Below, piece by piece: positions 6,913-64,000 of a stretch of 64,000 bases of DNA. The translations under genes were made by a program, and so were the position numbers. The notes beneath the pieces were generated by a model, which worked only from the letters and a program-made list of their open reading frames with translations, searched no databases and was not told the DNA's origin. This DNA is from Mustelus asterias (Eukaryota), in the NCBI RefSeq assembly GCF_964213995.1, contig NC_135823.1, forward strand, positions 4,216,001-4,280,000, written 5' to 3'. How positions within the stretch are numbered: position 1 is the stretch's first letter; the number at the start of each line of letters is the position of its first letter.

Positions 6913-7715
6913 GTCCGGACAAATGTGAGGTAATTCATTTTGGAAGGTCTAATACAGATTGGAATTATACAGTAAATGGCAGAACCCTTAAGAGTATTGA
7001 TAGGCAAAGGGATCTGGGTGTACAGGTACACAGGTCACTGAAAGTGGCAATGCAGGTGGAGAAGGTAGTCAAGAAGGCATACGGCATGCTTGCCTTCACC
7101 GACCGGGGTATTGAGTTTAAAAATTGGCAAGTCATGTTGCAGCTTTATAGAACCTTAGTTAGGCAGCACTTAGAATATAGTGTTCAATTCTGGTCGCCAC
7201 ACTACCAGAAGGATGTGGAGGCTTTGGAGAGGGTACAGAAAAGATTTACCAGGATGTTGCCTCGTATGGAGGGCATTAACTATGAGGAGAGGTTGGAGAA
7301 ACTTGGTTTGTTCTCACTGGAGCGACGGAGGTTGAGGGGAGACCGGATAGAAGTCTACAAGATTATGAGAGGCATGGACAGAGTGGATAGTCAGAAGCTT
7401 TTTCCCAGGGTGGAAGGGTCAATTACTAGGGGGCATAGGTTTAAGGTGCGAGGGGCAAGGTTTAAAGGAGATGTACGAGGCAGAGTTTTTACACAGAGAG
7501 TAGTGGGTGCCTGGAACTCGTTGCCGGGGGAGGTAGTGGAAGCGGATACGGTAGTGACTTTTAAGGGGCGTCTTGACAAGTACATGAATAGGATGGGAAT
7601 AGAGGGATATGGTCCCCGGAAGGGTAGAGGGTTTTAGTTAAGTCGGACAGCATGGTCGGTGCAGGCTTGGAGGGCCGAAGGGCCTGTTCCTGTGCTGTAA
7701 TTTTCTTTGTTCTTT
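6913..7715 (+). mobile_element. HER1/CR1 LINE 3' fragment
   Basis: ORF with DKCEVIHFGR, HLEYSVQFWSPHY and ERVQKRFTRMLP; tail GGGCCGAAGGGCCTGTTCCTGTGCTGT + (TTTGTTC). Confidence 0.9.
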
Positions 7716-8721: not shown

Positions 8722-9732
8722 TCACTTGTGAACTCGCTGGTGTGCCCGCAGGTTGGATAACCAAGTAAATCCCTTCCCACACTGAGAGCAGGTGAATGGC
8801 CTCTCCCCAGTGTGAACTCGCTGGTGATTCAGCAGGGCAGATGAAATAGTGAATCCCTTTCCACACACAGAGCAGGTGAATGGTTTCTCCCCAGTGTGAA
8901 TTCGCTGGTGTACCCGCAGGTTGGATGATGTTTGAAACCTCTTTGTGCAGTGAGAGCAGCTGAACGGTCTCTCCTCAGTGTGAATGCGCTGGTGGGACAC
9001 CAGATCTCCAGAGCGTTTGAAGCTGCTCCCACAGTCAGAGCATTTAAAGGGTCTCTCCTGGGTGTGAGTGACTTTGTGTGTCAGCAGGGCAGATGACTGA
9101 GTGAATACCTCCCCACACTGAGAGCAGGTGAACAATCTCTTGCCAGTGTGAACTCGCTGGTGTTTCCGCAGCATGTGTGACCTTCTAAAACTCTTTGTGC
9201 AGTGAGAGCAGCTGAACGGTCTCTCCCCGGTGTGAATGCGCTCGTGGTCCCTCAGATCCGCAGCACGTTTGAAGCCGCTCCCACAGTCAGTGCATTTAAA
9301 AGGTCTCTCATTGCTGTGAGTGACTTTGTGTCTCAGAAGGTGGGATGAAGCAGTGAATGCCATTCCACACACAGAGCAGGTAAACGGCCTTTCCCCCGTG
9401 TGAACTCTCAGGTGCATCTGCAGGTGGTATGACCTTCTAAATCTCTTTGAGCAGTGAGAGCAGCTGAACGGTCTCTCCTCAGTGTGAATGCGCTGGTGGG
9501 ACACCAGTTCTCGAGAGCTTTTGAAGCCACTCCCACAGTCAGAGCATTTAAAGGGTTTCTCCTGGGTGTGCGTGACATTGTGACTCAGCAGGGTGGGTAA
9601 CTGAGTGAATCCCTTCCCACACACAGAGCAGATGAATGGCCTCTCCCCAGTGTGATTGCGTCGATGAGTTTCTAGCTCAGATGGGAACCTGAATCCCTTC
9701 CCACAATCCCCACACTTCCACAATTTCTCCAT
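8722..9732 (-). CDS. C2H2 zinc-finger protein ZNF-1, 12 fingers
   Basis: Uninterrupted CxxC-x12-HxxxH repeats with TGERP-type linkers; likely start ATG at 9732 (ACCATGG); the ORF track starts at an upstream TTG; ends HQRVHK*. Confidence 0.9.
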   Translation of the reverse strand: MEKLWKCGDCGKGFRFPSELETHRRNHTGERPFICSVCGKGFTQLPTLLSHNVTHTQEKPFKCSDCGSGFKSSRELVSHQRIHTEERPFSCSHCSKRFRRSYHLQMHLRVHTGERPFTCSVCGMAFTASSHLLRHKVTHSNERPFKCTDCGSGFKRAADLRDHERIHTGERPFSCSHCTKSFRRSHMLRKHQRVHTGKRLFTCSQCGEVFTQSSALLTHKVTHTQERPFKCSDCGSSFKRSGDLVSHQRIHTEERPFSCSHCTKRFQTSSNLRVHQRIHTGEKPFTCSVCGKGFTISSALLNHQRVHTGERPFTCSQCGKGFTWLSNLRAHQRVHK

Positions 9733-10124
9733 GGTGCGGGTGTCCTTGTGACTCTCCAGGTTAAACAATCAATTAAATCTCACACAGAACACGGGTACAG
9801 TCTCTCCCCGCTGTGAATGCTGCGATGTATTTTCAGGCTGTGTAACTGGTTAAAGCTCTTTCCACACACAGTTCACTGGAACACTCTCACTCAGGTATGT
9901 GTGTGTCTCGGTGCTTTTCCAGTCACACTGATGATTAAAGTCTTTTGAAGCCGACAGAACAGAGAAACATTTCTCCTTCTAGATTCAAAGGTCGATATAT
10001 TCAGGTCCCAATGAATTGAGTGAGTCTGTCAGATGTTGACATGTGGGAGTTTGTTTCAAGAATTCTGTCTGTAAATCCTCACCTTCTGATAATCTGTAAA
10101 ATGAGTTTGAAAAAGTCATCAGTG

Positions 10125-10393: not shown

Positions 10394-11220
10394 AAAGAAC
10401 AAAGAACAGTACAGCACAGGAAACAGGCCCTTCGGCCCTCCAAGCCTGTGCCGCTCCTTGGTCCAACTAGACCAATCGTTTGTATCCCTCCATTCCCAGG
10501 CTGCTCATGTGACTATCCAGGTAAGTCTTAAACGATGTCAGCGTGCCTGCCTCCACCACCCTACTTGGCCAGGCCCCCACCACCCTCTGTGTAAAAAACG
10601 TCCCTCTGATATCTGAGTTATACTTCGCCCCTCTCAGCTTGAGCCCGTGACCCCTCATGATCGTCACCTCCGACCTGGGAAAAAGCTTCCCTCTGTTCAC
10701 CCTATCTATATCCTTCATAATCTTGTACACCTCTATTAGATCTCCCCTCATTCTCCGTCTTTCCAAGGAGAACAACCCCAGTCTACCCAATCTCTCCTCA
10801 TAGCTAAGACCCTCCATACCAGGCAACATCCTGGTAAACCTTCTCTGCACTCTCTCTAACGCCTCCACGTCCTTCTGGTAGTGCGGCGACCAGAACTGGA
10901 CGCAGTACTCCAAATGTGGCCTAACCAGCGTTCTATACAGCTGCATCATCAGACTCCAGCTTTTATACTCTATACCCCGTCCTATAAAGGCAAGCATACC
11001 ATATGCCTTCTTCACCACCTTCTCCACCTGTGTTGCCACCTTCAAGGATTTGTGGACTTGCACACCTCGGTCCCTCTGTGTTTCTATACTCCTGATGACT
11101 CTGCCATTTATTGTATAACTCCTCCCTACATTATTTCTTCCAAAATGCATCACTTCGTATTTATCCGGATTAAACTCCATCTGCCACCTCTCCACCCAAT
11201 TTTCCAGCCTATTTATATCA
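10394..11220 (-). mobile_element. HER1/CR1 LINE 3' fragment
   Basis: ORF 10467..11195 ([24 protein letters not shown]); (TTTGTTC)n tail. Confidence 0.9.
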
Positions 11221-12357: not shown

Positions 12358-13548
12358 CATAGAAACATAGAAAACGACAGCACAAAACAGGCCCTTCGGC
12401 CCCACAAGTTGTGCCGAACACATCCCTACCTTTTAGGCCTACCTATAACCCTCCATCCTATTAAGTCCCATGTACTCATCCAGGAGTCTCTTAAAAGACC
12501 CTGTTGAGTTTGCCTCCACCACCACTGACGGCAGCCGATTCCACTCGCCCACCACCCTCTGTGTGAAAAACTTCCCCCCAACACCTCTCCCCTGTACCTA
12601 CACCCCAGCACCTTAAACCTGTGTCCTCTTGTAGCAGCCATTTCCACCCTGGGAAAAAGCCTCTGAGAGTCCACCTGATCTATGCCTCTCAACATCTTAT
12701 ATACCTCTATTAGGTCTCCTCTCATCCTATGTCTCTCCAAGGAGAAAAGACCGAGCTCCCTCAGCCTATCCTCATAAGGCATGCCACTCAATCCAGGCGA
12801 CATCCTTGTAAATCGCCTCTGCACCCTTTCAACCTTTTCCACATCCTTCCTATAATGAGGCAACCAGAACTGAGCACAGTACTCCAAGTGGGGTCTGACG
12901 AGGGTCTTATATAGCTGCATCATTATCCCCGGACTCCTAAACTCAATCCCTCGATTGATAAAGGCCAGCACACCATACACCTTCTTAACCACCTCCTCCA
13001 CCTGCGGGGCCGATTTTAGAGTCCTATGGACCCGGACCCCAAGGTCCTTCTGATCCTCTACAGTACTAAGAGTCTTTCCCTTCATATTGTACTCCTTCAT
13101 CCCATTTGACCTGCCAAAATGGACCACTACGCATTTATCTGGGTTGAAGTCCATCTGCCACTTCTCTGCCCAGTCTTGCATCCTATCTATGTCCCTCTGT
13201 AACTTGACATCCCTCCAGACTATCCACAACCCCACTAACCTTCGTGTCGTCGGCAAACTTACCAACCCATCCCTCCACTTCCTCATCCAGGTCATTTATG
13301 AAAATGACAAACAGCAAGGGTCCCAGAACAGATCCCTGGGGCACACCACTGGTGACCGACCTCCATTTAGAAAAAGACCCATCTATACCCACTCTCTGCC
13401 TCCTTTGGGCAAGCCCGTTCTGGATCCACAGGGCAGCAGCCCCTTGGATCCCATGCCCTCTCACTTTTTCTAGAAGCCTTGCATGGGGGACCTTATCGAA
13501 CGCCTTGCTAAAATCCATATAAACCACATCTACCGCTTTCCCTTCATG
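12358..13548 (-). mobile_element. HER1/CR1 LINE fragment (RT domain)
   Basis: [25 protein letters not shown] and KFADDTK motifs; frameshifted. Confidence 0.9.
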
Positions 13549-13549
13549 G

Positions 13550-14905
13550 TCGATCAACAGAGATCCTGATCCTCCTCTATCCCTTGATCCCTTTCGCCCC
13601 AAAGCTATATCTAAATTCTTCTTGAAATCAGGCAAAGTTTTGGCTTCAACTACATTCGGTGGTAGTGAATTCCACACTCTCTCGGTGAAGAAATTTCTCC
13701 TCACCTCAGTTCTAAAAGGTTTACCCCTTATCCTCAAACTATGACTCCTAGTTCTGGACTCCCCCACCATTGGTAACATTCTTTCTGAATCTACCCTGTC
13801 GACCCCTGTTAGAATTTTATGTTTCTATGGGGTTCCCTCTCACTCTTCCGAACTCCAGGGAATATAATCTTAAGTGACTTAGTCTCTCCTCATGATAGGA
13901 ATCAGCCTGGAAAACCTTCGCTGTACTCCCTTTATACCAAGGGCGTTGTTCCTCAGATAAGAACACCAAAACTGTACACAATACTCCAGGTGTGGCCTCA
14001 GCAATGCCCTATATAATTGCAGCAAAAAATCCCTATCCCTGTACTCAAATCCTCTCGCTATGAAGGCCAACATACCATTTGCCTTCTTTACTGCCTGCTG
14101 TACCTGCACGCTTACTTTCAGTGACTGATGCACGAGGACTCCAAGGTCTCATTGAGTATCTACCTCTCTGAATTTACATCCATTCAAGTAATAATCTGTC
14201 TTCCTATTATTGCTTCCAAAGAGGATAACCTCACATTTATCCACATTATACTGAATTGGCCATGCAGATGCCCACACGCTCAGCCTGACCAAATCATGCT
14301 GAAGCATCTCTGCATCCTCCTCACAGCTTACCCTCCCACCCAACTTTGTATCATCTGAAAATTTGGAGATAATACATTCAGTTCCCTCTTCCAAATCATT
14401 AATATATAATGTGAACAGTTGGGGTCCTAGCACAAATTCCTGCGGAACTTCACAAGTCACTGACTGCCAATCAGAAAAAGAACCATTTATGCCAACTCTT
14501 TGCTTCCTGTCTGCTGACCAGCTTTCTATCCATCTCAAGACATTACCTGCAATCCCTTGTACTTTACATAGTAGTCTGTTATGTGAGACCTTATCGAAAG
14601 CCTTCTGAAAGTCTAAATAAACCACATCCACTGGTTCTCTTCAGTCAACTCTACTAGTTGCAACCTCAATAAAATCCAATAGATTCGTCAAGCATGATTT
14701 CCCTTTTGTAATTCCATGCTGACTTTGTCTGATTATACCACTGCCTTCCAAATGCTGAGTTATGAAATCCTTGATAATAGAGTCGAGCAACTTCCCCAGC
14801 ACTGACGTTAGGCTCACTGGTCTATAGTTCCCTGTTTCCTCTCTACCTCCCTTTTTGAATAGCGGGCTTACATTAGCTACCCTCCAATCTGTAGGAACTA
14901 TTCCA
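13550..14905 (-). mobile_element. CR1 LINE fragment (second subfamily)
   Basis: NYRPVSLTSV, LDFQKAFDKVSH and KFSDDTKLGG motifs with frameshifts. Confidence 0.85.
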
Positions 14906-16697: not shown

Positions 16698-17135
16698 GGC
16701 CTCACAGATGTTGTACAGAGGAGTAAGTTTTAGTCTGAAGCTCATTGGCCAACCTCCAGTCCTCCCACAATTCCTATTGGTCAACACCTCAACAGGAAGC
16801 TCTGGGGTTGGGCGCCCTTCCGCACATGCGCAGCTTTCCCTCCCCTTGGACATGCGCACTCCCGGTCCGGGAGGTCACCGAGCAGCTCCTCGCTCTGGCC
16901 GGATCCTCAGCCGGTTGCCTGGAAACCTTGGGTGCTGGAGGTGCAGAGGAGGGGGAGCGGTAGGTGGGGCGGAGTTCCCGTGTTCGCGCGCCGGAACCCG
17001 GAGACGTCACCGTGGAGCAGTGTTTCTATTGGCTGATTCAGACAGATCTCTATTGTGACGTCACAACGTGGAAGTTGGCCAATGAGCTTCAGGCTAAACC
17101 TTCCTCCTCTGAGCAACATCTGTGAGGAAATCAGT
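16698..17135. promoter_or_regulatory. Bidirectional CpG-rich promoter A with mirrored first exons (ZNF-1/ZNF-2)
   Basis: ~53-bp inverted repeat ending in outward-facing GTGAGG donor-like sites (16705 -, 17122 +); CCAAT boxes; CRE TGACGTCA 17056-17063; NRF1-like GCACATGCGCA 16822; GC box ~16966. Confidence 0.75.
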
Positions 17136-17882
17136 GTTTCTCCCTTTCCATTTCTTATTCTGGGGGAAATTGGGGACTTGCAGCAACTGAAGGAAAAGGA
17201 AGTGAATCCAGTCTGTATATTGCACACATTTTTAGTCCAGTCATAGAGACATATATCTGTCTGGCCGCCTGCATGGAGATTTCCAGCTCTCTGTGTCCAG
17301 GACAGGAAGCAATGAGCATGGATCTGTCAATCAGCCTCAATCAGCACCTTCAGGAGAATTGGGAGGGTGAATATTAGATACAGCAAAGTGAGAATGGAGG
17401 GCAAGTGTGTGGGATGGAAATAGACGGCTTTTCGGGAATAAAAGAGGAAAGAATGTTTTATAGAAGCTAAAATTATCTGTTCTGAATATATCCTGTACTG
17501 ACTGTGATGTCTGTTGTAAATTTATTTTACAGGCTACCAGGAGGTGAGGATTTACGGTCAAAAATCTCAAGCCAAATGTCATGTCAAGATCTGACAGAGT
17601 CACTCAATTTGTAGGGACCTGAATATCATCAGTCTTTGGAAGCAGACAGGACAGAGAAATATTTCTCTTCTTTATTCAAAGATTTAATATGAGTGTGACT
17701 AGAAAAGCACTGAGACACACACACCTGAGTGAGGGTGTTGCAATGCAGTGTGTGTGGAGCCTTAACTAGTTACACAGGCTAAAAAAAGTTGCAGCATTCA
17801 CAGTGGGAAGACACCGTGTTCTGTGTGTGGACGAGGCTTCAACTGATCATCAAACCTGGAGAATCACAAGGACACCCGCAGC

Positions 17883-19226
17883 ATGGAGAAACGATGGAAA
17901 TGCGGGGACTGTGAAAAAGGATTCAGGTTCCCGTCTGAGCTGGAAATTCATCGACGCTGCCACACTGGGGAACGTCCATTCACCTGCTCTGTCTGTGGGA
18001 AGGGATACATTCAGTTATCCAGCTTGCTGAGTCACAATCTCACTCACACCAGTGAGAGACCCTTTAAATGCTCTGACTGTGGGAGTGGCTTCAAAACTTC
18101 TGGAGAACTGGTGTCCCACCAACGCATTCACACCGAGGAGAGACCGTTCAACTGCTCTCACTGCACAAAGAGGTTTAGAAGGTCATCCAATCTGCAGGTA
18201 CACCAGAGAGTTCACACTGGGGAGAGACCATTCACCTGCTGTGTGTGTGGCAAGGGATTCACTGCTTCATCCAGCCTGATCAAACACAAAGGCACTCACA
18301 GCAATGAGAGACCCTTTAAGTGCACTGGCTGTGGGAATGGTTTCAAAAATGCTGCAGATCTGATGGACCACCAGAGCATTCACACTGAGGAGAGACCGTT
18401 CAGATGCTCGCACTGCACAAAGAGGTTTAGAAGGTCATCCACACTGCGGAGACACCAACAAGTTCACACCGGGGAGAGACCATTCACCTGCTCTGTGTGT
18501 GGGAAGGGATTCACCCGGTTATCCAGCCTGCTGAGTCACAATCTCACTCATAAGGAGAGACCCTTTAAATGCTGTGACTGTGGGAGTGGCTTCAAAAGCT
18601 CTGGAGAACTGGTGTCCCACCAGCGCATTCACACTGAGGAGAGGCCGTTCAGCTGCTCTCACTGCTCAAAGAAATTTAAAAAGTCGTCCAACCTGCAGGT
18701 ACACCAGAGAGTTCACACTGGGGAGAGGCCATTTAGCTGCTCTGTGTGTGGGAAGGGATTCACTCATTCATCCAGCCTGCTGGTACACCAGCGAGTTCAC
18801 ACTGGAGAGAGACCATTCACCTGCTCTGTGTGTGGGAAGGGATACATTCAGTTTTCCAACCTGCTGAGTCACAATCTGACTCATACCAATGAGAGACCCT
18901 TTAAATGCTCTGACTGTGGGAGTGGCTTCAAAACCTCTGGAGAACTGGTGTCCCACCAGCGCATTCACACTGAGGAGAGACCATTCAGCTGTTCTCACTG
19001 CACAAAGCGATTTAAAAGGTCATCCAACCTGCGGGTACACCAGCGAGTTCACACTGGGGAGAAACCATTCACTTGCTCAGTCTGTGGAAAGGTATTCACT
19101 CAGTCATCTGCCCTGCTAAGGCACCAACGAGTTCACACGGGGGCAAGACCATTCACTTGCTCCGAATGTGGGAAGGGATTCACTCGGTCATCCCACCTGC
19201 AGAGACACCAGCGAGTTCACAAGTGA
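17883..19226 (+). CDS. C2H2 zinc-finger protein ZNF-2, 16 fingers
   Basis: 447-aa ORF made entirely of C2H2 fingers; starts MEK, ends HQRVHK*. Confidence 0.92.
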
Positions 19227-25829: not shown

Positions 25830-26840
25830 TCACTTGTGAACGCGCTGGTGTCTCCGCAGACTGGACGAATCACTAAATCCTTTCCCACACTGAGAGCAGG
25901 TGAATGGCCTCTCCCCAGTGTGAACTCGCTGGTGTCTTCGCAGGTGGGATGGATCACTGTATCCCTTCCCACACTGAGAGCAAGTGAATGGCCTCTCTCC
26001 AGTGTGAACTCGCTGGTGTGTTCTCAGGTTGCGTGCATGCATAAATCCCTTTCCACAGTCAGAGCAGGTGAATGGCCTCTCCCCAGTGTGAACTCGCTGG
26101 TGTGTCAGCAGAATGGATGACAGAGTAAATCCTTTCCCACAGATGAAGCAAATAAATGGCCTTTCACCAGTGTGAACTCGCTGATGAGTCTGCAGGGTGG
26201 ATGAATGACTGAATCGCTTCCCACACTGAGAGCAGGTGAATGGCCTCTCCCCAGTGTGAACTCGCTGGTGTGTCCTCAAGTGAGATGAATCACTGAATCC
26301 CTTCCCACACTGGGAGCAGGCGAATGGCTTCTCCCCAGTGTGAACTCGCTGGTGTCTCAAAAGGTGGGATGAATCACTGAATCCCCTCCCACACACGGAG
26401 CAGGTGAATGGTCTCTCTCCAGTGTGAACTCGCTGATGTACCTGCAAGTGGGATAAGTAAATGAATCCCTTCCCACACACAGTGCAGGTGAACGGCCTCT
26501 CCCCAGTGTGAACTCGCTGGTGTGCCCGCAGGTTAGATGACCGAGTGAATCCCTTCCCACACCAAGAGCAAGTGAATGGCCTCTCTCCGGTGTGAGCTCG
26601 CTGGTGTTTCTGTAGATCGGATGAATATCTGAATTGCTTCCCACATGCAGAGCAAGTGAATGGCCTCTCCCCAGTGTGAACTCTCTGGTGTGTCTGCAGA
26701 GTGAATAACTTAGTGAATCCCTTCCCACACACAGAGCAGGTGAACGGCCTCTCCCCAGTGTGAATGCGTCGATGAGCTTCCAGCGCAGATGGGGCTCTGT
26801 ATCCCTTCCCACAGTCCCCACATTTCCACACTTTCTCCAT
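25830..26840 (-). CDS. C2H2 zinc-finger protein ZNF-3, 12 fingers
   Basis: Intact array with canonical TGERP linkers; ATG at 26840; ends HQRVHK*. Confidence 0.92.
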
Positions 26841-27632
26841 GATTTTGGTCTCCTGGTGCCTCTCCAAGTTGGACAATCAGTTGAAAACTTGACCACACAC
26901 AGAACACAGTCTCTCCCTGTTATTCAAGCTGTGTAACTGGTAAAAGTTATTTCCACAGAAAGTCCACTGGAACACTCTCACTTGGTTGGGTGTGTCTCAG
27001 TGCTTTGCCAATCACACTGATGTTTAAAATCATATGAAGCCAAAAAAACAGACAAACATTCCTCCTTCTGGATTAAAGGACCCATGATATTTAGGTTCAT
27101 AGGAATGGAGCGACTCTGACAGATCTATACGTGGTGTTTGAGATTTGTGTCTGTAATTCCTCCTCTTCCAGCGTCCTGTAAAAATAATTCATAAAAGTCA
27201 TGACTGTCAGCACAGGATAGAAATTCAGAAGTCAATTTCAGTTTCTATGGAACATTCTTTTCTCTCTCATTCCCCAAAAGCTGTAAATCTCCATCCCACA
27301 CACTCTCCCTCCATTCTCACTCTGCTGTATCTAATATTCACCCTCCCAATTCTCCTGAAGGTGCTGATTTAGTCTGATTGACAGATCCATGCTCATTGCT
27401 TCCTGTCCTGGACACAGAGAGCTGAAAATATTCAAGCTGACAGTCACGTTAAAGTTTTACATTTGGACATAAACGAGCAGACTGATGATGTGTGTAATAC
27501 ACTGTATTAGCTGTTAGAGATGCATGAAGAATGTGAGGAGGATCTTTATTTCAGCAGCGAGTGGTGACCTGGAAGTTAAAAATTGAAACCGAGAACGAGA
27601 AAAGAAACGGAGACGGAGAGAAAAGAAAATGT

Positions 27633-28220
27633 CTTACTCACAGATGTCGGCGACAGGAGGAAGTTTGAGTCTGTGTGAAGCTCAATGTTCATTCAGAGGG
27701 AGAGGAGCAGCAGCTTTGCTGGGCCGTGATGAACAGGTGAACAAGCTCATTGTCCAGCTTCCGCATTCAGACAATGGGGAGCTCTGATTGGTTGGAGGTG
27801 CAGAGTCCTTCCGGTCCTCCATAGTTCCCATTGGTCAATCCCCCGCAGACAGACAATGAGGGGCGGAGCCCCACGTGGGGGTGGGAGAGACTTTGCCCTC
27901 CAGCCGCGCTGAGCTGTGGTCCAATGGGAAAGGCTGCAAGACCGGGACAGAAAATGGTCAGCGCGCCGGCTTTGTCCCGGGTCCGCCCCTCACCCGCACA
28001 TGCGCATTCCCCAAAATCCCGCACATGCGCTTTATCCCCAGAAACCTGCACATGCGCACCGTCGATTCATTGCCTCTCATTGGCTTCGGCCAATAGGAAG
28101 AGTTGGAAGACCAGAAAGACTCTGGTCCTCCAGCCAATCAGAGCGCGGGCTTTGTGTGAATGAAGATGGGGCTTCAGACAGACTCAAACTTGCTCCTGTC
28201 GCCGACATCTGTGAGTAAAA
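27633..28220. promoter_or_regulatory. Bidirectional CpG-rich promoter B (ZNF-3/ZNF-4)
   Basis: Inverted CAGACTCAAACTT.CTCCTGTCGCCGACATCT|GTGAGT at both ends (donors 27641 -, 28211 +); three GCACATGCGC motifs (27996, 28021, 28047); several CCAAT and GC boxes. Confidence 0.78.
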
Positions 28221-28367
28221 CACTTTCTTTACTCCCCCTTTCCATTTCTTTTCTCATTCTGGGGGAAATTGGGGACTTGCAGCAACTGAAGGGAAAGGAA
28301 GTGAATCCAGGGAGGGGCAGACTCTGGAAAGGTTGGCCCAGGTCTCTCTCTGTCTCTTAAAGACATT

Positions 28368-28669: not shown

Positions 28670-31330
28670 TTGATTAGGGAAAGCATCACGGCCGTACTGA
28701 GAGAGGAAATATCCGAGGGTTCAGTCACTGAGTCTATATGGGTAGAACTGAGAAATAAGAAGGGGGAAATCACTTTGATAGGGCTGTACTATAGGCCCCC
28801 AAATAGTCAGTGGGAAATTGAGGAGCAAATATGCAAGAAGATTACAGATAGCTCCAAGAAAAATAGGGTGGTAATAATCGGAGATTTTAATTTTCCCAAC
28901 ATTGACTGGGACAGCTTTAATATTAGAGGGTTGGATGGAGAGAAATTTGTTGAGTGTATTCAGGAGGAATTTCTCATTCAGTATGTGGATGGCCCGACTA
29001 GAGAGGGGGCAAAACTTGACCTCCTCTTGGGAAATAAGGAAGGGCAGGTGCCAGAAGTGTTAGTGAGGGATCACTTTGGGACCAGCGACCATAATTTTAT
29101 TAGTTTTAAGATAGCTATGGAGATTGATAGGTCTGTCCTAAAAGTTAATATTCTAAATTGGGGCAAGGCCAATTTTGATGGTATCAGGCAGGAACTTTCA
29201 AACATTAATTGGGGGAGTCTGTGGGAAGGCAAAGAGACGTCTGGTAAGTGGCATGCTTTCAAAAGTGTGTTAAGCAGGGTTCAGGGTAAACACATTCCTC
29301 TTAGAGTGAAGAGCAGGCTGGCAGAAGTCGGGAACCCTGGATGACTTGGGATATTGAGGCCCTGGTCAAGAAGTAGAAAGAGGCACATGGCATGCATAGG
29401 CAGCTGGGATCAAGTGAATCTCTTGAAGAGTATAGGGGGTGTAGGAGTAGAGTTAAAAGAGAAATCAGAAGGGCAAAAAGGGGACATGAAATTGTTTTGG
29501 CAGATAAGGCAAAGGAGAATCCAAAGAGCTTCTACAAATACATAAAGGGCAAAAGAGTAACAAGGGTGAGAGTAGGGCCTCTTAAGGATCAGCAAGGTCA
29601 TCTATGTGCGGATCCACAAGAAATGGGTGAGATCCTAAATGAGTATTTCTCATCAGTATTTACTGATGAGAAAAGCATGGATGTTAGGGAACTTGGGGAA
29701 ATAAATATTGATGTCTTGCGGAGTGTACATATTACAGAGAAGGAGTTGCTGGAAGTCTTAAAGCGCATCAAGGTAGATAAATCCCCGGGACCTGATGAAA
29801 TATATCCCAGGACGTTGTGGGAGGCTAGGGAGGAAATTGCGGGTCCCCTAGCCGAGATATTTGAATCATCGATAGTCACGGGTGAGGTGCCTGAAGATTG
29901 GAGAGTGGCAAATATTGTGCCTTTGTTTAAAAAGGGCTGCAGGGAAAAGCCTGGGAACTACAGGCCAGTGAGCCTCACATCTGTGGTGGGTAAATTGTTG
30001 GAAAGTATTTAGAGAGACAGGATCTACAGGCATTTAGAGATGCAAGGACTGATTAGGGACAGTCAACATGGCTTTGTGAGTGGAAAATCATGTTTCACAA
30101 ATTTGATTGAGTTTTTTTGAAGGGGTAACCAAGAAGGTAGATGAGGGCAGTGCAGTTGATGGACTTTAGCAAGGCCTTTGACAAGGTACCGCATGATAGG
30201 TTGTTGCATAAAGTTAAATCTCACGGGATCCAGGGTGAGGTATCTAAATGGATACAAAATTGGCTTCTTGACAGAAAGCCAGAGGGTGGTTGTAGAGAGT
30301 TGTTTTTCAAACTGGAGGCCTGTGACCAGCAGTGTGCCTCAGGGATCAGTGCTGAGCCCACTGTTATTTGTCATTTATGTTAATGATTTGGATGAGAATA
30401 TAGGGGGCATGGTTAGTCAGTTTGCAGATGACACCAAGTTTGGTGACATAGTGGACAGTGAAGAAAGTTATCTCCAATTGCAACAGGATCTTGATCAATT
30501 GGGCCAGTGGGCTGACGAATGGCAGATGGAGTTTAATTTAGATAAATGCGAGGTGATGTATTTTGGTAGATTGAACCAGGGCAGGACTTACTCAGTTAAT
30601 AGTAGGGCATTGGGGAGAGTTACAGAACAAAGAGATCTCGACGTACATGTTCATAGCTCCTTGAAAGTGGAGTCACAGGTGGACAGAGTGGTGAAGAAGG
30701 CATTTGGCATGCTTGGTTTCATCGGTCAGAACATTGAATACCGGAGTTGGGACGTCTTGTTGAAGTTGTACAAGACATTGGTAAGGCAACACTTGGAATA
30801 CTGTGTGCAATTCTGGTCACCCTATTATAGAAAGGATATTATTAAATTAGACAGAGTGCAGAAAAGATTTACTAGGATGCTACTGGGACTTGATGGATTG
30901 AGTTATAAGGAGAGGCTGAATAGACTGGGACTTTTTTCTCTGGAGCGTCGGAGGCTGAGGGGTGACTTTATAGAGGTCTACAAAATAATGAGGGGCATAG
31001 ACAAGGTAGATAGTCAATATCTTTTCCCAAATGTAGGGGAGTCTAAAACTAGAGGGCATAGGTTTAAGGTGAGTGGGGAGAGATACAAAAATGTCCAGAG
31101 GGGCAATTTTTTCACACGGAGGGTGGTGAGTGTCTGGAACAAGCTGCCAGAGGTAGTAGTAGTAGAGGGGGGTACAATTTTATCTTTTAAAAATCATTTA
31201 GATAGTATAGAGGGATATGGGCCAAATGCTGGCAATTGGGATTAGCTTAGGGGCTTTAAAAAAAAAGGCGGCATGGACAAGTTGGGCTGAAGGGCCTGTT
31301 TCCATGCTGTAAACCTCTATGACTCTAATA
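28670..31330 (+). mobile_element. HER1/CR1 LINE, long copy (APE endonuclease + RT, frameshifted)
   Basis: ESIWVEL, YYRPP, GDFNFP and SDH (endonuclease); NYRPVSLTSVVGK and FADDTK (RT); CR1 tail. Confidence 0.92.
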
Positions 31331-31925: not shown

Positions 31926-32773
31926 GTTACTGAAGCTATGTTATATATCTCCAGTCATAGAGTTCTTACAACACAGGAGTCCATTTGACAATTGAATTGG
32001 TCCCATTCTGTAACTCTACAAATGCATTTTATTGCATTGCACATCCAATTTCACTTTGAAATAATTGACCATCACTGCTCGATTGCCCTCGTAAGCAGCA
32101 AGCTCAAAGTGAAGACCAATCACTGTCTAAGTAGAGATCTTTATCACAGACATCTGTATCTTCACCAACTGAAGCAGCCATGTACAGGAAGCAGTGAGCA
32201 TGGATCTGTCAATCAGCATCTTCAGGAGAATTGGGAGGGTGAATATTAGATACAGCAGAGTGAGAATGGAGGGAGAGTGTGAGGGATGGAGATTTACAGC
32301 TTTTGGGGAATGAGAGAGGAAAGAATGTTCCACAGGAACCAGACTTGTCTGTTCTGAATTTCTATCCTGTACTGACTGAGTTGGATTTTGTAAACTCCTT
32401 TTGCAGGATATTGGAAGTTGGAAATTACACAGATACAATTCTCCAAACAAACATCATGTGAGGATCTGACAGAATCACTCGATTCATCGGGACCTGAATA
32501 CCATTGGCCTTTGAATCTAGAAGGAAAAATGTTTGTCAATTCTTTCTGCCTCAGAAGATTTTAAACATCAGTTTGACTGGAACAGCACTGACGCACACAC
32601 ACACACACCTGAATGAAAGTGTTCCAGTGCACTTACTCTGGAAGATATTTAACCAGTTACACATCCTGAAAATAAATCACAGCATTCACAGCAGGGAAAG
32701 ACTAAATGTGTTCTTTGATGGACGAGGCTTCAACTGAACACTAAACCAGGAGAAACACAGGGACACCCATACC

Positions 32774-33448
32774 ATGGAGAAACCGTGGAAATGTGGGGAC
32801 TGTGGGAAGGGATTCCGTGCCCCATCTGATCTGGAGATTCATCGACGCAGTCACACTGGGGAGAGGCCGTTCACCTGTTCTGTGTGTGGCAAGGGTTTCA
32901 GTAAGTCATCCGTCCTGCAGACGCACGGGCGAGTTCACAGCGGAGAGAGGCCGTTCATCTGCTCTGACTGTGGGAAAGGATTCACTCATTCATGGAACTT
33001 GAAGACACACCAGAGAGTTCACACCGGGGAGAGGCCGTTCAGCTGTTCTGAGTGTGGGAAGGGATTCAGTCGGTTTTCCAGTCTGCAGACACACCGGCGA
33101 GTTCACACCAGGGAGAGGTTGTTCTCCTGTTCGGAGTGTGGGAAGGGATTCATTGATTCATCCAACCTGTGGAAGCACCAGCGAGTTCACACCGGGGAGA
33201 GACCATTCACCTGCTCCAAGTGTGGGAAGGGATTCTGTGATTCATCACATCTGCTGACACACCAGCGAGTTCACACGGGGGAGAGACCATTCAGTTGCAT
33301 TGACTGTGGGAAAGAATTCACTCAGTTCTCAAATCTGCTGACACACCGGCGACTTCACACTGGGGAGAAGCCATTCGTCTGCTCTGATTGTGGGAAGGGA
33401 TTCACTCAATTAATATGCTTGCAGAAACACCAGCGAGTTCACAAGTGA
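32774..33448 (+). CDS. C2H2 zinc-finger protein ZNF-4, 8 fingers
   Basis: 224-aa ORF; ACCATGG start; ends HQRVHK*. Confidence 0.9.
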
Positions 33449-41280: not shown

Positions 41281-42065
41281 GGTTCGTGTGTCCTTGTGAT
41301 TCTCCAGGTTTGATAATCAGTTGCAACCTCGTCAACACTGAGAACACAGATACAGTCTCTCCCCGCTGTGAATGCTGCAATGTTTTTTTCAGGCTGTGTA
41401 ACTGGTTAAATCTCTTTCCACAGTCAGTGCACTAGAACTACTCTCACTCGGGTGTGTGTGTCTTGGTGCTTCTCAGTGCTTTTCCAGTCACACTGATGTT
41501 TAAAACCTTCTGAAGTGGATAGAACAGAGAAACATTTATCCTTCTCGATTCAAAGGTCGATAATATTCAAGTCCCGAAGAATTGAGTGACTCTGCCAGAT
41601 GTTGATGTGAAGTTTGGTTTGAGATTTCTGTCTGTAAATCCTCACCTTCTGATATCCTGTAAAAGAAGTTTATAGAAGTCATCACTGTCAGTACAGGATA
41701 GAAATTCAGAACAGACAATTCTAGTTTCTATGGAACATTCTTTCCTCCCTCATTCCCCAAAAGCTGTAAATCTCCATCCCACACACTCTCCCTCCATTCT
41801 CACTCTGCTGTATCTAATATTCACCCTCCCAATTCTCCTGAAGGTGCTGATTGAGGCTGATTGACAGATCCATGCTCACTGCTTCCTGTCCTCGGCACAG
41901 AGAACTGAAAATCTCTATGCAGGCGGCCAGACAGATATCTGTCTCTATGACTGGATTAAGGATGTGTGCAATATACAGACTGGATTCACTTCCTTTCCCT
42001 TCAGTTGCTGCAAGTCCCCAGTTTCCCCCAGAATGAGAAAGGAAATGGAAAGGGGGAGACATTGA

Positions 42066-42540
42066 TTTCCTCACGGATGTTGTTTAGAGGAGGAAGTTTT
42101 AATCCGAAGTTCATTGGCCAGTTTCCGCGTTGTGACGTCACAACAGAACTCTGTCTTTAAGCAGCCACGAGCAATCATTCTGCTCCGTGGTGACGTCTCC
42201 GGGTTCCAGTGCGCAGGCCCCGCCTGTTCCCCCTCCCCCTGCGTCTCCTCGAGCCAAGGTTTCCAGGCTGACGGCTCCGGCCAGAGCGAGAAGCCACTCG
42301 GTGATCTCCCCCTCCCCAACGGCCCGGGATTGCGCATGTCCAAGGGAGGGGGAAGCTGCGCATGTGCGGGGGAGAGCCCACCCACTGACCTTCATGTTGA
42401 AGTATTGACCAATAGGAAAATTTGGAGGACCGGAAGGACACTGATCCTCCAGCCAATCAGCGTGTGATCTTTGTGTGAATGCTGATTGAGCTTCAGACAG
42501 ACTCAAACCTCCTCCTGTCGCCGACATCTGTGAGTAAAAC
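42066..42540. promoter_or_regulatory. Bidirectional CpG-rich promoter C (ZNF-5/ZNF-6)
   Basis: Outward donors GTGAGG (42074 -) and GTGAGT (42530 +); CRE 42133-42140; TGCGCATGT 42331 and 42357; CCAAT boxes. Confidence 0.75.
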
Positions 42541-42612
42541 ACTTCATTTCCCCCCCCCCCCCTTTCCATTTCTTTCCTCATTCTGGGGAAATTGGGGACT
42601 TGCAGCAACTGA

Positions 42613-45600
42613 TGATAAGAAATAGAAGCAGGAGTGGCCACCAGGTGCTTCAAGCCTTCCCCGCTATTCTGTCCGATCATGGCAGGCCAATGCCGGCCTC
42701 AACTCATTTTCTGTGCCCTTTCCCCATCGCCCTCTTCCTCAATCTATCAAATATTTATCCACCCCCAATTCTAATGATCCAACCTCCACCACCCTTTGGG
42801 GCAGAGAATTCCAGAGGTTCACCAACCTCTGCGAGATGAAATTTCTACGCACCTCAGGTTTAAATGACGAGCCCTTTATCTTGTTCGAGACCCTCCCACT
42901 CGTGAAAATATCTCACCATCTATCTTGTCAAGTCTCCTCAGGATCTTATATGTGTGAATAAGGTCACCCCTCACTCTGCTAAACTCCAAAGAATACAAAC
43001 CCATACTATTTAGTTTCTCTTGATAGGACAATGTTCTCCTCCCAGGAATTAGCCTGGTGAATCTCCTTTGGACTTTCTCCAATGTTACTATATCCTTTAT
43101 TAGATAAGGGGACCAAAACTGTGCAGTATTTCAGGTGAGGCATCTCCAGCACCCTGACCGCCCTGTTTTTAAACTCCAACCCATTTGCAATAAAGGTCAA
43201 AATGCTGTTTTCCTTCTTAACTACTTGTTGGACCTGCCGGCTAGCTTTTTGTGATTCATGCACGAAAACACCTAAATCCCTCTGTATTTCACTCACCAGC
43301 TGTACCTCTCCATTTAGATAATCCGCCTTTGAATACATGACCCCAACCCCCACATTAAACTCCAGTGGCCAGGGTTTTGTCCAGTCACCCAATCAATCTA
43401 TATCCTGTTGTAGAATCACAATATCCTCATCATAACATATCCTTCCTTCATGTCATCAGCAAATTTGAAAACCTTACATTCTGTTCCTTCCTCAAGGTCA
43501 TTAATGTAAATAGTGGACAATAGTGGGCCAAGAACTGATCCTTGCGGTACTCCACTAGTTGCATATTTCCACTCTGAAAAGAAAAAAGAAAATTACAGTG
43601 CAGGAACAGGCCCTTTGGCCCTCCAAGCCTGCACCAACCATGCTGCCCGACTGAACTAAAACCCCATACCCTCTCGGGGACCATATCCCTCTATTTCCAT
43701 CCTATTCATGTGTTCCTTAAGACGCCCCTTAAAAGTAACTATTATATTTGCTTCCACTATCTTCCCCGGCAACAAGTTCCAGGCATCCACCACCCTCTAT
43801 ATAGAAAACTTGCCTTGTACACCTCCTTTAAACCTTGTCCCTCACACCTTAAATGTATGCCCCCTAGTAATTGATGCTTCCATCTTGGGAAAAAGCTTCT
43901 GACTATCCACTCTGTCCATGCCCCTCATAATCTTGTAGACTTCTATCAGGTTGCCCCTCAATCTCCGTCGTTCCAGTGAGAACAAACCCTATTTCTCCAA
44001 CCTCTCCTCATAAATAATGCCCTCCATTCTGTACCTCTCCAAAGCCTCCACATCGTTCTGGTAGTATGGTGACCAGAATTGAATACTATATTCCAAGTGC
44101 GGCCTAACTAAGCTGCAACGTGACTTGCCAATTTTTAAACTCAATACCCCTGCCGATGAAGGCAAGCATGCCGCATGCCTTCTTGACTACCTTCTCCACC
44201 TGCGTTTCCACTTTCAGTGACCTGTGTACCTGTACACCCAGATCCCTCTGCCTATCAATGCTCTTAAAGGTTCTGCCATTTACTGTATATTTCCTATCTG
44301 TATTATTTCCAAAAAGCAATACTTCACATTTGTCCAGATTAAACTCCATCTGCCACCTCTCCGCCCAAGTCTCCAATCGATCTATATCCTGCTGTATCCC
44401 CTGATGGTCCTCATCGCTATCCACAAATCCACCGACCTTTGTGTCGTCCGCAAACTTACTAATCAAACCAGTTACATTTTCCTCCAAATCATTTTTATAT
44501 ATTACAAACAGCAAGGGTCCCAGCACTGATCCCTGAGGAACACCACTTGTCACACCCTCCATTCAGAAACGCATCCTTCCACTGCTACCCTCTGTCTTCT
44601 ATGACCGAGCCAGATCTGTATCCACCTTGCCAGCTCACCTCTGATCCCATACGACTTCACCTTCTGCACCAGTCTGCCATGAGGGACCTTGTCAAAGGCC
44701 TTACTGAAGTCCATGTAGACAACATCCGCTGCCCTACCCTCATCAATCATCTTTGTCACTTCCTCGAAAAACTCGATCAAGTTGGTGCGACACAACCTCC
44801 CCTTCACAAAACCACATTGTCTCTCGCTAATACGTCCACTTATTTCCAAGTGGGAGTAAATCCTGTCTTGAAGAATCTTCTCCAATAATTTCCCTACCAC
44901 TGACCTAAGGCTCACCGGCCTGTAATTACCTGGATTATTCTTGCTACCGTTCTTAAACAAAGGAACAACATTGGCTATTCTCCAATCCTCTGGGACCTCC
45001 CCTATACAGTAAGAAGTTTAACAACACCAGGTTAAAGTCCAACAGGTTTATTTGGTAGCAAAAGGCTTTTGCTACCAAATAAACCTGTTGGACTTTAACC
45101 TGGTGTTGTTAAACTTCTTACTGTGTTTACCCCAGTCCAACGCCGGCATCTCCACATCATGACCTCCCCTATAGCCAGTGAGGAAACAAAGATTTCTCTC
45201 AAGGCCCCAGCAATTTCCTCTCTTGCCTCTCAATATTCTGGGTTATATCCCATCAAGACCCATTTATTCCAATTCTCTGTTTTCTAGTGTCGGACAGTTT
45301 TCAATCGATGCTAACACACTTTCACCAATTCCATAGGCTTTTACTTTATGCACCAGTCTCTTAGGTGACACCTTGTCAAATGCCTTTTGGAAATCTAAAT
45401 ACACTACATCTACAGGTTCCCCTCGATCTACTCTCCCCTGTTACGTTCTGAAAGAATTTGAGAAAATTTGTCAAACATGATTTATGTTTCATTAAACCAT
45501 GTTGACCAGGTTTGATTAGCAAATGATTAGCTCTTTCCTCTTTGATTATTGACTCCAGTGTCTTGCAAATAATAGATGTTAAACTATTGGCTTATAGGTC

Positions 45601-45790: not shown

Positions 45791-46491
45791 ACTGAAGGGA
45801 AAGGAAGCGAAACCAGTCTGTACATTCCACACATTTTTAGTCCTGTCATACAGACATATATCTGTCTGGCAGCCTGCATGGAGATTTTCAGCTTGCTGTG
45901 TCCAGGACAGGAAACAGTGAGCCGGATCTGTTAATCAGCCTCAATCAGCACCTTCAAGGGAATTGGGAGGGTGAATATTAGATACAGCAGAGTGAGAATG
46001 GAGGGAGAGTGTGTGGGATGGAGATTTACAGCTTTTGGGGAATGAGAGAGGAAAGAATGTTTCATAGAAACTAGAATTGTCTGTTCTGAATTTCTGGACT
46101 GACTGTGATGACGTTTGTAAATTCCTTTTATAGGATATCAGAAGGTGAGACTTTACAGACAGAAATCTCAAACCAAACTTCACATCAACAGCTGACAGAG
46201 TCCCTCAATTTATCTGGACCTGAATATCATCGGCCTTTGAATCGAGAAGGAGAAATGTTTCTCTGTTCTGTCTGCTTCTGAGATTTTAAAAATCAGTGTG
46301 ACTGGAAAAGCACCGAGACACACACACACCTGAGTGAGAGTGTTCCAGTGCACTGAGTGTGGAAAGAGTGTTAACTAGTTACACAACCTGAAAATACATC
46401 TGAGCATTCACAGCGGGGAGAGACTGTACCCGTGTTCTGTGTGAGATTTAACTGATTGTTTAACCTGGAGAGTCACAAGGACACCCGCACT

Positions 46492-47334
46492 ATGGAGAAA
46501 CCGTGGAGGTGTGGGGATTGTGGGAAGGGATTCAGGTTCCCATCTCAGCTGGAAATTCATCGACGCAGTCACACTGGGGAGAGGCTGTTCACTTGCTCTG
46601 ACTGCGGGAAGGGATTTATTTGGTTATCCCACCTGCAGACACACAAAGTCACTCACACCCAGGAGAGACCCTTTAAATGCTCTGACTGTGGGAGTGGCTT
46701 CAAAAGCTCCCAGGTACTGAGGGCTCACCAACGCATTCACACTGAGGAGAGACCCTTCAGCTGCTCTCACTGCACAAAGAGATTTAAAGGGTCATCTGAA
46801 CTGCAGCGACACCAGCGAGTTCACACTGGGGAGAGACCGTTCACCTGCTCTGTGTGTGGAAAGGGATTCACTCAGTTACCCACCCTGCTGAGACACAATC
46901 TCACACACACCAACGAGAGACCCTTTAAATGCTCTGACTGTGGGAGCGGCTTCAAAAGCTCTGGAGAACTTATAATCCACCAGCGCATTCACAGTGAGGA
47001 GAGACCATTCAGCTGCTCTCACTGCACAAAGAGATTTAAAAGGTCATCCACACTGCGGGAACACCAGCGAGTTCACACTGGGGAGAGGCCATTCACCTGC
47101 TCTCAGTGTGGGAAGAGATTCACTCAATTACCCCATTTGCAAACACACCAGCAACTTCACACGGGGGAGAAACCGTTTATCTGCTCTCACTGTGGGAAGG
47201 GATTCATTTGCTTATCCAACCTGCTGACACACGAGCGAGTTCACACTGGGGAGAGGCCATTCACCTGCTCTCAGTGTGACAAAAGATACACTCGGTCCTC
47301 CCACCTGCTGAGACACCAGCGAGTTCACAAGTGA
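46492..47334 (+). CDS. C2H2 zinc-finger protein ZNF-6, 10 fingers
   Basis: Intact array; ATG at 46492; ends HQRVHK*. Confidence 0.9.
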
Positions 47335-51619: not shown

Positions 51620-53027
51620 TGTTAAGAAAGGGAATAGAAATGACCCTGGTAATTATAGGCTGGTTAGTCTTACTTCGGTGGTCGGTAAGTTGATGGAAAA
51701 GGTCCTCAGGGATAGGATTTACGACCATTTAGAAAGATGCGGATTAATCCGGGATAGTCAGCATGGATTCGTGAAGGGCAAGTCTTGCCTCACAAATTTG
51801 ATAGAATTTTTTGAGGAGGTAACTAAGTGTGCAGATGAAGGTAGTGCAGTTGATGCCATATACATGGATTTTAGTAAGGCGTTTGATAAAGTCCCCCACG
51901 GTCGGCTTATGAATAAAGTAAGGATGTGTGGGATAGAGGGAAGTTTGGCCGATTGGATAGGTAACTGGCTATCTAACAGAAGACAGAGGGTGGTGGTGGA
52001 TGGAAAATTTTCGGACTGGAAACCGGTTACCAGCGGAGTGCCATAGGGATCAGTGCTTGGTCCTCTGCTATTTGTAATTTTTATAAATGACTTGGAGGAG
52101 GGGGCTGAAGGGTGGATCAGTAAATTTGCTGATGACACCAAGATTGGTGGAGTAGTGGATGAGGTGGAGGGCTGTTGTAGGCTGCAAAGAGATATAGATA
52201 GGATGCAGAGCTGGGCTGAAAAATGGCAAATGGAGTTTAACCCTGACTAATGCGAGGTGATTCATTTTGGTAGGACTAATTTTAATGTGGATTACAGGGT
52301 CAAAGGTAGGGTTCTGAAGAATGTGGAGGAACAGAGAGATCTTGGGGTTCATATCCATAGATCTCTGAAGGTTGCCACTCAAGTGGATAGAGCCGTGAAG
52401 AAGGCCTATAATGTGTTGGCGTTCATTAACAGGGGGTTTGAGTTTAAGAGCCGTGGGGTTATGCTGCAACTGTACAGGACCTTGGTGAGACCACATTTGG
52501 AATATTGTGTGCAGTTCTGGTCACCTCACTATAAGAAGGATGTGGAGACACTGGAAAGAGTGCAAAGGAGATTTACCAGGATGCTGCCTGGTTTGGAGGG
52601 TAGGTCTTATGAGGAAAGGTTGAGGGAACTTGGGCTTTTCTCTTTGGAGCGGAGGAGGTTGAGAGGAGACTTGGTAGAGGTTTATAAGATGATGAGGGGG
52701 ATAGATAGAGTGAACGTTCAAAGACTATTTCCTCGGGTGAATGGAGCGGTAACTAGGGGGCATAACTATAGGGTTCATGGTGGGAGATATAGGAAGGATG
52801 TCCAAGGTAGGTTTTTTACTCAGAGAGTGGTTGGGGTCTGGAATGGACTGCCTGCAGGGATAGTGGAGTCAGAAACTTTAGGAACATTTCAGAAGCTATT
52901 GGATAGGCACATGGAGTACTTCGGGATGATGGGGAGGAAATAGCTTGATCTGGGTTTCAGACAAAGCTCGGCACAACATCGTGGGCCGAAGGGCCTGTTC
53001 TGTGCTGTACTGTTCTACGTTCTATGT
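51620..53027 (+). mobile_element. Young HER1/CR1 LINE fragment (RT, two nonsense codons)
   Basis: Colinear ORFs 51678..52046, 52053..52250 and 52257..52943; ATGTT duplicated at the ends. Confidence 0.92.
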
Positions 53028-53419
53028 TAGTTCCTGGTCTCCTGGATACACAACTAACAGCCACATTTTTACCTTTCTCAATAATAATTTCCACAGTTAT
53101 GTTTTCCATCACGGCATCAGTATCAATGTCCGAGTGACTTCTAATTAAAAATTCTACCCACACACAAAGCCAGAACCCCTTTTTTATGTGTCCGATTAAT
53201 GTAGCTCATCTCATAGCCTTCAAATTCAAATTCATCACCCTCCCTAAATCAAGCCAAGTCACTGATACAGTGACCACATTCAACTGGGTTTTAAAATAAT
53301 TCAAATACTCTGATCTCCTGAATGTTTGAGTTTAAACTTCTAATACTAAGATGAATAAGTGGTACAACACCTTCCAAACTCTGAGTCACGTTAAATTATT
53401 CATCAGTATTAATAGTATT

Positions 53420-63565: not shown

Positions 63566-63868
63566 GGTGCGGGTGTCCTTGTGACTCTCCAGGTTAAACA
63601 ATCAGTTAAATCTCACACAGAACACGGGTACAGTCTCTCCCCGCTGTGAATGCTGCGATGTATTTTCAGGCTGTGTAACTGGTTAAAGCTCTTTCCACAC
63701 ACTGCATTGGAAGACTCTCACTCGGAAAGCACAATGTTTTTAAGAGAGACCTGGGCCAACCTTTCCAGAGTCTGCACCCCCCCCTGGATTCACTTCCTTT
63801 CCCTTCAGTTGCTGCAAGTCCCCAATTTCCCCCAGAATGAGAAAGGAAATGGAAAGGGGGAGACACTG

Positions 63869-64000
63869 ATTTCCTCACAGATGTTGCAGAGGAGGAAGTT
63901 TTAGTCTGAAGCTCATTGGCTAACTCGTGCACTGACGTCACAACGGAGTCCTGCCTGAATCAACCAATAAGAATCCGCCTGCTCCTCGGTGACGTCTCCG
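63869..64000. promoter_or_regulatory. Left half of bidirectional promoter D (truncated by window end)
   Basis: Same first-exon/donor motif (63878 -), CCAAT and CRE 63933-63940 as promoters A and C. Confidence 0.7.

What the first reader, a model, noticed from the sequence alone, without database searches (positions are those of the whole stretch)
9730..10090. 5' leader built from dead zinc fingers with a TGA fixed 13 codons before the start in all seven genes
Seen: an in-frame TGA at the helix -1 position of a finger (FN*xxNLExH) at 9769-9771, 17844-17846, 26877-26879, 32735-32737, 41317-41319, 46453-46455 and 63602-63604. A second TGA (SV*LEKH) is shared by the six genes retaining that region. 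Two or three degenerate fingers and an acidic segment (EGEDLQTEISNQ) lie upstream, with copy-specific frameshifts. Inference: the founder lost its N-terminus, and possibly its effector domain, through CGA-to-TGA stops before the family expanded. The relic may now work as a uORF/re-initiation leader; readthrough is less likely.
Basis: partly seen in the sequence, partly recalled or inferred. Interest (0 to 1): 0.7.

Follow-up and report, generated by a model that had tools for sequence, protein, structure and literature searches.

The report
Fossil zinc-finger leader in shark genes
A very large family of shark-type zinc-finger genes carries the decayed remains of its old protein start in front of the present start codon; the shared stop codons were likely inherited from one ancient founder and now behave mostly like ordinary untranslated sequence, with only a weak hint that one of them keeps a short upstream reading frame closed.

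Summary
Observation confirmed: all 7 genes have TGA 13 codons before the ATG and 6 have the second TGA. The family is genome-wide: 859 of 1177 start-motif copies have TGA there, none CGA. The leader is a former coding exon (acidic linker plus three fingers); a sister family keeps the third finger alive. Sawshark and horn-shark gene models end at the upstream stop and a white-shark model at the -13 stop, so the upstream stop likely predates the main shark split. The leader is not coding now (omega 0.85-1.23, frames randomised). The -13 TGA ranked first for conservation in 100 copies but not on replication (P 0.25; pooled 0.14), and a uORF ends there in only 13 of 212 copies. The upstream TGA shows weak uORF-linked retention (0 of 9 losses, 3.2 expected). 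No effector domain, SECIS or covarying RNA structure was found. The scan already noted this effector-less family on other DNA of this genome.

The parts
9769..9771 (-). g1 stop C: TGA 13 codons before the ATG, helix -1 of dead finger F3
9923..9925 (-). g1 stop B: TGA in dead finger F1
9733..10093 (-). g1 fossil leader, the 5' part of the last exon: acidic linker + F1 + F2 + F3; uATG at 9970 opens an 11-codon uORF; AG acceptor just upstream of 10093
   Evidence: acceptor use seen in relatives' contigs on g5
8722..9732 (-). g1 finger-only ORF, 336 aa, strong Kozak context at the ATG
16750..17200 (+). g2 CpG-rich promoter and first-exon region; donors near 17122 and 17200 inferred
   Evidence: relatives' contigs and S. 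torazame models join such sequence to the acceptor
17287..17366 (+). g2 putative 80-nt middle exon; reads as an open low-complexity linker in the ancestral frame, omega about 1
   Evidence: its splicing is inferred, not observed
17533..17882 (+). g2 fossil leader (stop B 17696-17698, stop C 17844-17846)
17883..19226 (+). g2 ZNF ORF, 447 aa
26841..27175 (-). g3 fossil leader (stop B 27014-27012, stop C 26879-26877); ORF 25830-26840
32407..32773 (+). g4 fossil leader (stop B 32574-32576, stop C 32735-32737); ORF 32774-33448
41281..41656 (-). g5 fossil leader (stop B 41490-41488, stop C 41319-41317); ORF frameshifted, 144 aa
46134..46491 (+). g6 fossil leader (stop B 46299-46301, stop C 46453-46455); ORF 46492-47334
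63566..63722 (-). g7 partial leader (F2+F3, stop C 63604-63602) joined to promoter-type DNA; broken ORF of 51 aa

Best explanation
The region is the decayed former N-terminal coding part (acidic linker plus three zinc fingers) of a finger-only C2H2 gene family, likely closed by stop codons in one ancient founder and since copied as 5' untranslated sequence by duplication of the whole gene. The present start codon sits where the sister family has the Gly codon of the TGEKP linker, so it likely arose there, in a strong Kozak context. Ribosomes would reach it by leaky scanning or re-initiation past short, dispensable uORFs. The -13 TGA is most likely a passenger of the founder; the upstream TGA may be under weak selection to keep the 11-15-codon uORF short.
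For: Former coding: alignment and translation of the leader; a white-shark model scores zf-C2H2 over the cut-off on F2; the sister family (428 motif hits) shares acceptor and acidic segment, translates F3 and has TGEKP where this family has TMEKP. Founder event: 190 of 212 scored copies have a stop at C and 191 of 206 at B; Pristiophorus and Heterodontus models end exactly at B and a Carcharodon model at C. Not coding now: spectrum-corrected omega 0.85-1.23 in four leader segments against 0.67 in the CDS; 91 of 118 distinct leader indels shift the frame (70 of 100 copies); acceptor-to-ATG phase is 78/57/65. C is dispensable: copies with a sense codon there keep good ORFs (18 of 22) about as often as copies with the in-frame stop (138 of 161); conservation rank 40 of 216 on replication and 61 of 513 pooled, context-matched P 0.14. 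The intron upstream is as conserved as the leader (mean rate 12.9 against 11.1-15.9). The acceptor and leader appear in contigs of related organisms.
Against: In the first 100 copies stop C was the most conserved of 158 triplets (base-matched P 0.001). Pooled, both stops lose stop status about half as often as 13 control TGA triplets (12.8 and 9.9 against a mean of 21.8) while TGA-to-TAA is at the normal rate; Fisher P 0.27 and 0.35. Stop B ranked 1 of 216 on replication and was never lost where a uORF depends on it. The leader is still recognisable across sharks that may have split more than 200 million years ago, which pure drift need not give. No translation data exist; the sequencing runs are of other organisms and only guessed to be RNA. 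Parsimony counts on paralogue trees are distorted by gene conversion.
Confidence: 0.68

Rival explanations
1. The fossil leader is a selected translational throttle: the ATG at the start of F1 opens an 11-15-codon uORF, the stops keep it short, and ribosomes re-initiate about 200 nt later at the finger ORF, holding down the output of thousands of DNA-binding proteins.
For: Stop B is intact in 80 of 80 copies where an in-frame ATG reaches it, but lost in 15 of 125 others (9 independent clusters; 0 in the dependent state, 3.2 expected from branch length; my binomial P is about 0.02, or 0.055 after allowing for the lower loss at control TGAs in those copies). Over all 13 stop triplets, 36 losses fall in the dependent state against about 49 expected (summed). 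187 of 195 leaders hold at least one uATG. Models in two distant sharks end at B.
Against: The uATG is present in only 139 of 192 scored copies and its G is fast-changing. Reading through B would add a median of 12 codons and still end before the main ATG in 79 of 81 copies. 30 of 195 copies tolerate an overlapping uORF. Stop C, the subject of the finding, shows no such dependence. The uORF peptide is not conserved (omega 1.23).
Confidence: 0.2
2. The TGA bases are conserved as part of a nucleotide element (RNA stem, branch point or protein-binding site), not as stops.
For: Stop B lies in one arm of a 10-bp complementary pair whose arms both change slowly; 88% of cells are paired in that helix. 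Stop C sits in a CTGAT that fits the branch-point consensus (recalled), and two Heterodontus models splice into a site just downstream (P0019, P0030).
Against: No covariation: 431 of 500 shuffles reach the observed score. RNAalifold predicts no pairs, fold z-scores are -0.40 and -0.09, and Rfam has no match. The candidate donor G and acceptor AG change faster than the true acceptor (about 23 and 6/9 against 2/3). No other model with that junction was found.
Confidence: 0.09
3. The TGAs are recoded (readthrough or selenocysteine), giving N-terminally extended proteins.
For: Both stops are TGA, and C is in frame with the ORF in 185 of 213 copies.
Against: The upstream frame is randomised by frameshifts. 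TGA changes to TAA (7 events) as readily as control G sites change to A. No SECIS or other Rfam match in the window. The site is a helix position, not a Cys ligand.
Confidence: 0.03

Closest known systems
Tetrapod KRAB-ZNF clusters and cyprinid FiNZ-ZNF genes (PMC10547256, passages read)
   Same: Hundreds to thousands of clustered tandem C2H2 genes, small upstream exons and one last exon with an acidic or low-complexity linker followed by the finger array.
   Different: No effector domain was detected; the linker and first fingers are closed by stops and translation is predicted to start inside an old TGEKP linker. That paper has no mention of cartilaginous fish in its main text; its supplements were not read.
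Sister shark family starting MEGKSTVHSGE (428 motif hits here; also Cetorhinus, Heterodontus and Pristiophorus models)
   Same: Same acceptor and acidic segment, also closed by family-wide stops; finger-only products.
   Different: Lacks F1 and F2, starts at a different ATG, and keeps F3 in its ORF with a variable codon (Q, H, R, E) at the -1 position.
uORF-containing 5' UTRs of vertebrate mRNAs (PMC13087467, passages read)
   Same: Short non-overlapping uORFs allow re-initiation; in humans, stop-loss variants that change uORF type are rarer than those that change only length.
   Different: Here the uORF derives from a dead zinc finger and is replicated across a family of more than a thousand copies; it is absent from about a quarter of them and its translation is untested.

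Membership tests
Tandem C2H2 (Krueppel-type) ZNF gene family | Array of C2H2 fingers joined by TGEKP-type linkers in one exon | tested here: met
   ORFs of 224-447 aa in five window genes; homologues carry PF00096
KRAB-ZNF | KRAB-A domain on an upstream exon in frame with the array | tested here: not met
The genome-wide KRAB search found 0 matches, but its control did not ring
FiNZ-ZNF / KRAB-like ZNF of ray-finned fish | Conserved translated N-terminal acidic domain | tested here: not met
   The acidic segment has omega 0.85 and 42 of 56 indels shift the frame; no FiNZ model was available for a direct comparison
Selenoprotein / programmed readthrough gene | SECIS element in the 3' UTR | tested here: not met
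   0 Rfam matches at gathering score in the window
Selenoprotein / programmed readthrough gene | Conserved open frame on both sides of the TGA | tested here: not met
   Phase to the ATG is randomised upstream of F3; omega about 1
Regulatory uORF / re-initiation leader | Conserved uATG with a conserved in-frame stop | tested here: inconclusive
   uATG in 139 of 192 copies; stop B kept in 80 of 80 dependent copies (P about 0.02-0.055); stop C has no uORF in 197 of 212
Regulatory uORF / re-initiation leader | uORF is translated and alters main-ORF output | not testable with these tools
   Needs Ribo-seq or reporters
Structured cis-regulatory RNA | Covarying base pairs | tested here: not met
   Covariation 0.074 against 0.079 shuffled, 431 of 500 shuffles as high; no consensus fold

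The most novel reading that the evidence does not exclude
Sharks replaced an effector-bearing zinc-finger gene with a finger-only one whose dead first finger became a family-wide uORF brake, kept for over 200 million years, that limits how much protein each of more than 2,000 rapidly duplicating DNA-binding genes makes.
Probability: 0.2. Interest if true: 0.65.

Novelty: new variant of a known kind. Interest (0 to 1): 0.36.

Why it matters
It gives an origin and a minimum age for a very large shark zinc-finger family: two sister subfamilies each closed the old N-terminus and started from a new ATG, so the predicted proteins have no silencing domain, unlike KRAB and FiNZ genes. It also explains many odd shark gene models, which end at these stops or splice round them. 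If the uORF brake is real, it would be a way to make mass duplication of DNA-binding genes tolerable, and it is cheap to test. The -13 TGA alone is probably an inherited scar.

Tried and rejected
Protein search with the read-through leader of L014 found 1 unrelated insect protein among 2 candidates; a search for the splice-round junction of P0019 found only itself. No RNA holder of this organism was listed; the runs laid are contigs of other organisms guessed to be RNA. The first laying was swamped by finger repeats, and in the second 159 letter rows and 53 joints were not shown, so neither tests the codon or the cryptic intron properly. The genome-wide KRAB search was uninformative. Ungapped base frequencies suggested no special conservation, but indels blur them; tree-based counts replaced them. 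Uncorrected N/S ratios of 0.5-0.7 in the leader disappeared after correcting for the mutation spectrum. The unmasked pooled run ranked stop B 73 of 216; it included copies with non-homologous upstream DNA, which masked. A hand-drawn two-helix structure pairing both stops failed the covariation test. A Myb-site reading of the bases before stop C (motif recalled) was considered and not tested. Literature: searches listed no paper on this family or its leader (titles and abstract starts seen; passages read in PMC10547256, PMC8455134 and PMC11603059); most subscription journals are not in the library and no supplements were read.

Full report
Observation. The seven C2H2 genes of the window each have TGA at -39..-37 of an ATG that begins MEKxW. 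Six also have the upstream TGA (stop B) in the first dead finger. A third site four codons before B (stop A) is TAA in 83 and CAA in 66 of 227 genome copies. Upstream lie an AG acceptor at about -360, an acidic segment and three degenerate fingers F1-F3. g7 has lost the proximal half and has a 51-aa ORF; g5 is frameshifted.

Family size. One exact start pattern matches 1177 places in the 3.68-Gb genome; two non-overlapping variants add 899 and 238. Many hits lie on small contigs as near-identical repeats, so the count may be inflated. At -39 the 1177 divide into 859 TGA, 35 VGR (22 AGA, 13 CGG from an indel-shifted clade, 0 CGA), 68 TGB, 56 TH (33 TAA by eye) and 159 VH, of which 100 were listed and many keep the TGA shifted out of frame. 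One shifted copy has CGA at the homologous site.

Gene anatomy. A CpG-rich, often bidirectional promoter lies about 1 kb upstream of g2 and g5, followed by a first exon, a putative 80-nt middle exon and the last exon that holds leader and array. In contigs of related organisms laid on g5, several break or join at 41659, beside the acceptor, and continue in first-exon-like sequence; others run through unspliced. One contig spans intron end, leader and CDS on g2 (record 27). Two S. torazame models join upstream exons to the acidic segment. These runs are only guessed to be RNA. So the leader is probably part of the mRNA; this is not shown for this organism.

Origin. A profile of the acidic segment (12 sequences) found 30 proteins among 1.84 billion. 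Of the 20 looked up, the 16 with a name are all from sharks. Models from Pristiophorus japonicus and Heterodontus francisci end exactly at stop B, and one from Carcharodon carcharias ends at stop C; only the protein end is seen, not the codon. Sawsharks are squalomorphs, and 10.64898/2026.02.13.705779 (passages read) dates the common ancestor of non-hexanchiform sharks and rays to 256 Ma (HPD 212-312), so stop B likely goes back to near that time. Open codons exist: W at B in S. torazame P0039 and unnamed P0013, R at C in Heterodontus P0034. They may be ancestral or reversions. CGA-to-TGA is therefore plausible for C and doubtful for B. A real CpG-decay site 12 nt upstream of C is polymorphic (CGA 56, CAA 35, TGA 25), unlike C.

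Sister family. A second start motif, MEGKSTVHSGE, matches 428 places. In 30 copies read it shares acceptor and acidic segment, has its own stops there, lacks F1-F2 and keeps F3 in the ORF; its TGEKP linker aligns with TMEKP here. The present ATG therefore likely arose inside a linker; A at -3 is kept in 96 of 100 copies. Each subfamily closed the old frame and began from its own ATG. No effector domain was found in 28 leader-bearing sequences. [quoted passage not shown] What lay upstream in the ancestor remains unknown.

Is the leader still coding? No. On a tree of 70 copies (30 of 100 dropped for non-homologous intron) omega corrected for the mutation spectrum is 0.85, 1.23, 1.01 and 0.93 for acidic, F1, F2 and the end of F3, against 0.67 in the CDS, and 91 of 118 distinct indels in these segments shift the frame. 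The phase from acceptor to ATG is 78/57/65. Rfam finds no SECIS. Readthrough and selenocysteine are rejected.

Is the TGA conserved beyond its neighbours? Results conflict. First 100 copies: stop C ranks 1 of 158 triplets, base-matched P 0.001. Independent set (122 of 131 kept): rank 40 of 216, P 0.25, while B ranks 1 of 216, P 0.002. Pooled with masking (227 of 231): C ranks 61 of 513, context-matched P 0.14; B ranks 16 of 513, P 0.024. Stop-destroying changes number 12 (C) and 9 (B), or 12.8 and 9.9 after correction for occupancy, against a mean of 21.8 (range 9.6-42.9) at 13 control TGAs; G-to-A is 7 and 5 against 6.9; Fisher P 0.27 and 0.35. An intronic TGA and an out-of-frame leader TGA are about as conserved. 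Copies with a sense codon at C keep good ORFs in 18 of 22 cases, against 138 of 161 with the in-frame stop. Gene conversion and clade bursts limit all these counts.

uORF test. An exon-3 ATG reaches C in frame in 15 of 212 copies; C is lost in 2 of these and in 20 of the other 197, so C does not act as a uORF terminator in most copies. For B, the ATG at the start of F1 (present in 139 of 192) gives an 11- or 15-codon uORF. B is intact in all 80 copies where a uORF depends on it and lost in 15 of 125 others, in 9 clusters, 3.2 expected in the dependent state (my binomial P about 0.02, or 0.055 after the control-TGA adjustment). Against a strong effect, loss of B would add a median of 12 codons and end before the main ATG in 79 of 81 copies. 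This fits the mild selection on uORF stops described for human leaders in PMC13087467 (passages read).

RNA structure. Complementary arms exist and include stop B, but 69 sequences show no covariation, no consensus fold and unremarkable folding energy.

Verdict. Shown: the stops, their family-wide spread, the fossil nature of the leader, the lack of coding constraint and the sister family. Inferred: a single ancient founder, de novo origin of the ATG, and translation by leaky scanning or re-initiation. Not shown: an effector domain, CGA origin, or any function of the -13 TGA. I found no paper on this family in six searches, but the scan has noted it on other DNA of this genome. New variant of a known kind; interest 0.36.

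Noticed in passing
window 63566-64000 (-); also L016, L021, L023, L030, L092, L096, L101: Promoter or first-exon-type DNA is joined directly to the distal half of the leader at the CA-repeat just before F2 in several copies, suggesting a recurrent breakpoint.
   Followed up: partly
L324-L353 (42 hits): Copies with ACG or AGG in place of the start ATG; several ACG clades keep 253-364-codon open finger frames in a strong Kozak context. Either recent amplification of dead copies or near-cognate initiation.
   Followed up: partly
L161-L190: The sister MEGK family has its own family-wide stops in the acidic segment and lacks about 157 nt (F1-F2), with short repeats at the deletion ends.
   Followed up: partly
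window 41660-41825 and equivalents: The 168-nt intron before the last exon is as conserved among paralogues as the leader, and relatives' contigs often read through it; it may be retained or hold a regulatory element or start site.
   Followed up: partly
window 42100-42620 and 27580-28350: CpG-rich promoters with first-exon homology on both sides, between head-to-head genes g5/g6 and g3/g4.
   Followed up: no
window 7050-7637, 10467-11180, 12426-13779, 29392-31245, 51693-54593: Many fragments of reverse-transcriptase-like (LINE-type, label recalled) ORFs between and inside the ZNF genes, often in the first intron.
   Followed up: no
G000 contigs C87-C4236: The same ZNF clades recur as near-identical copies on many small contigs: either large recent segmental amplification or redundant assembly.
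   Followed up: no
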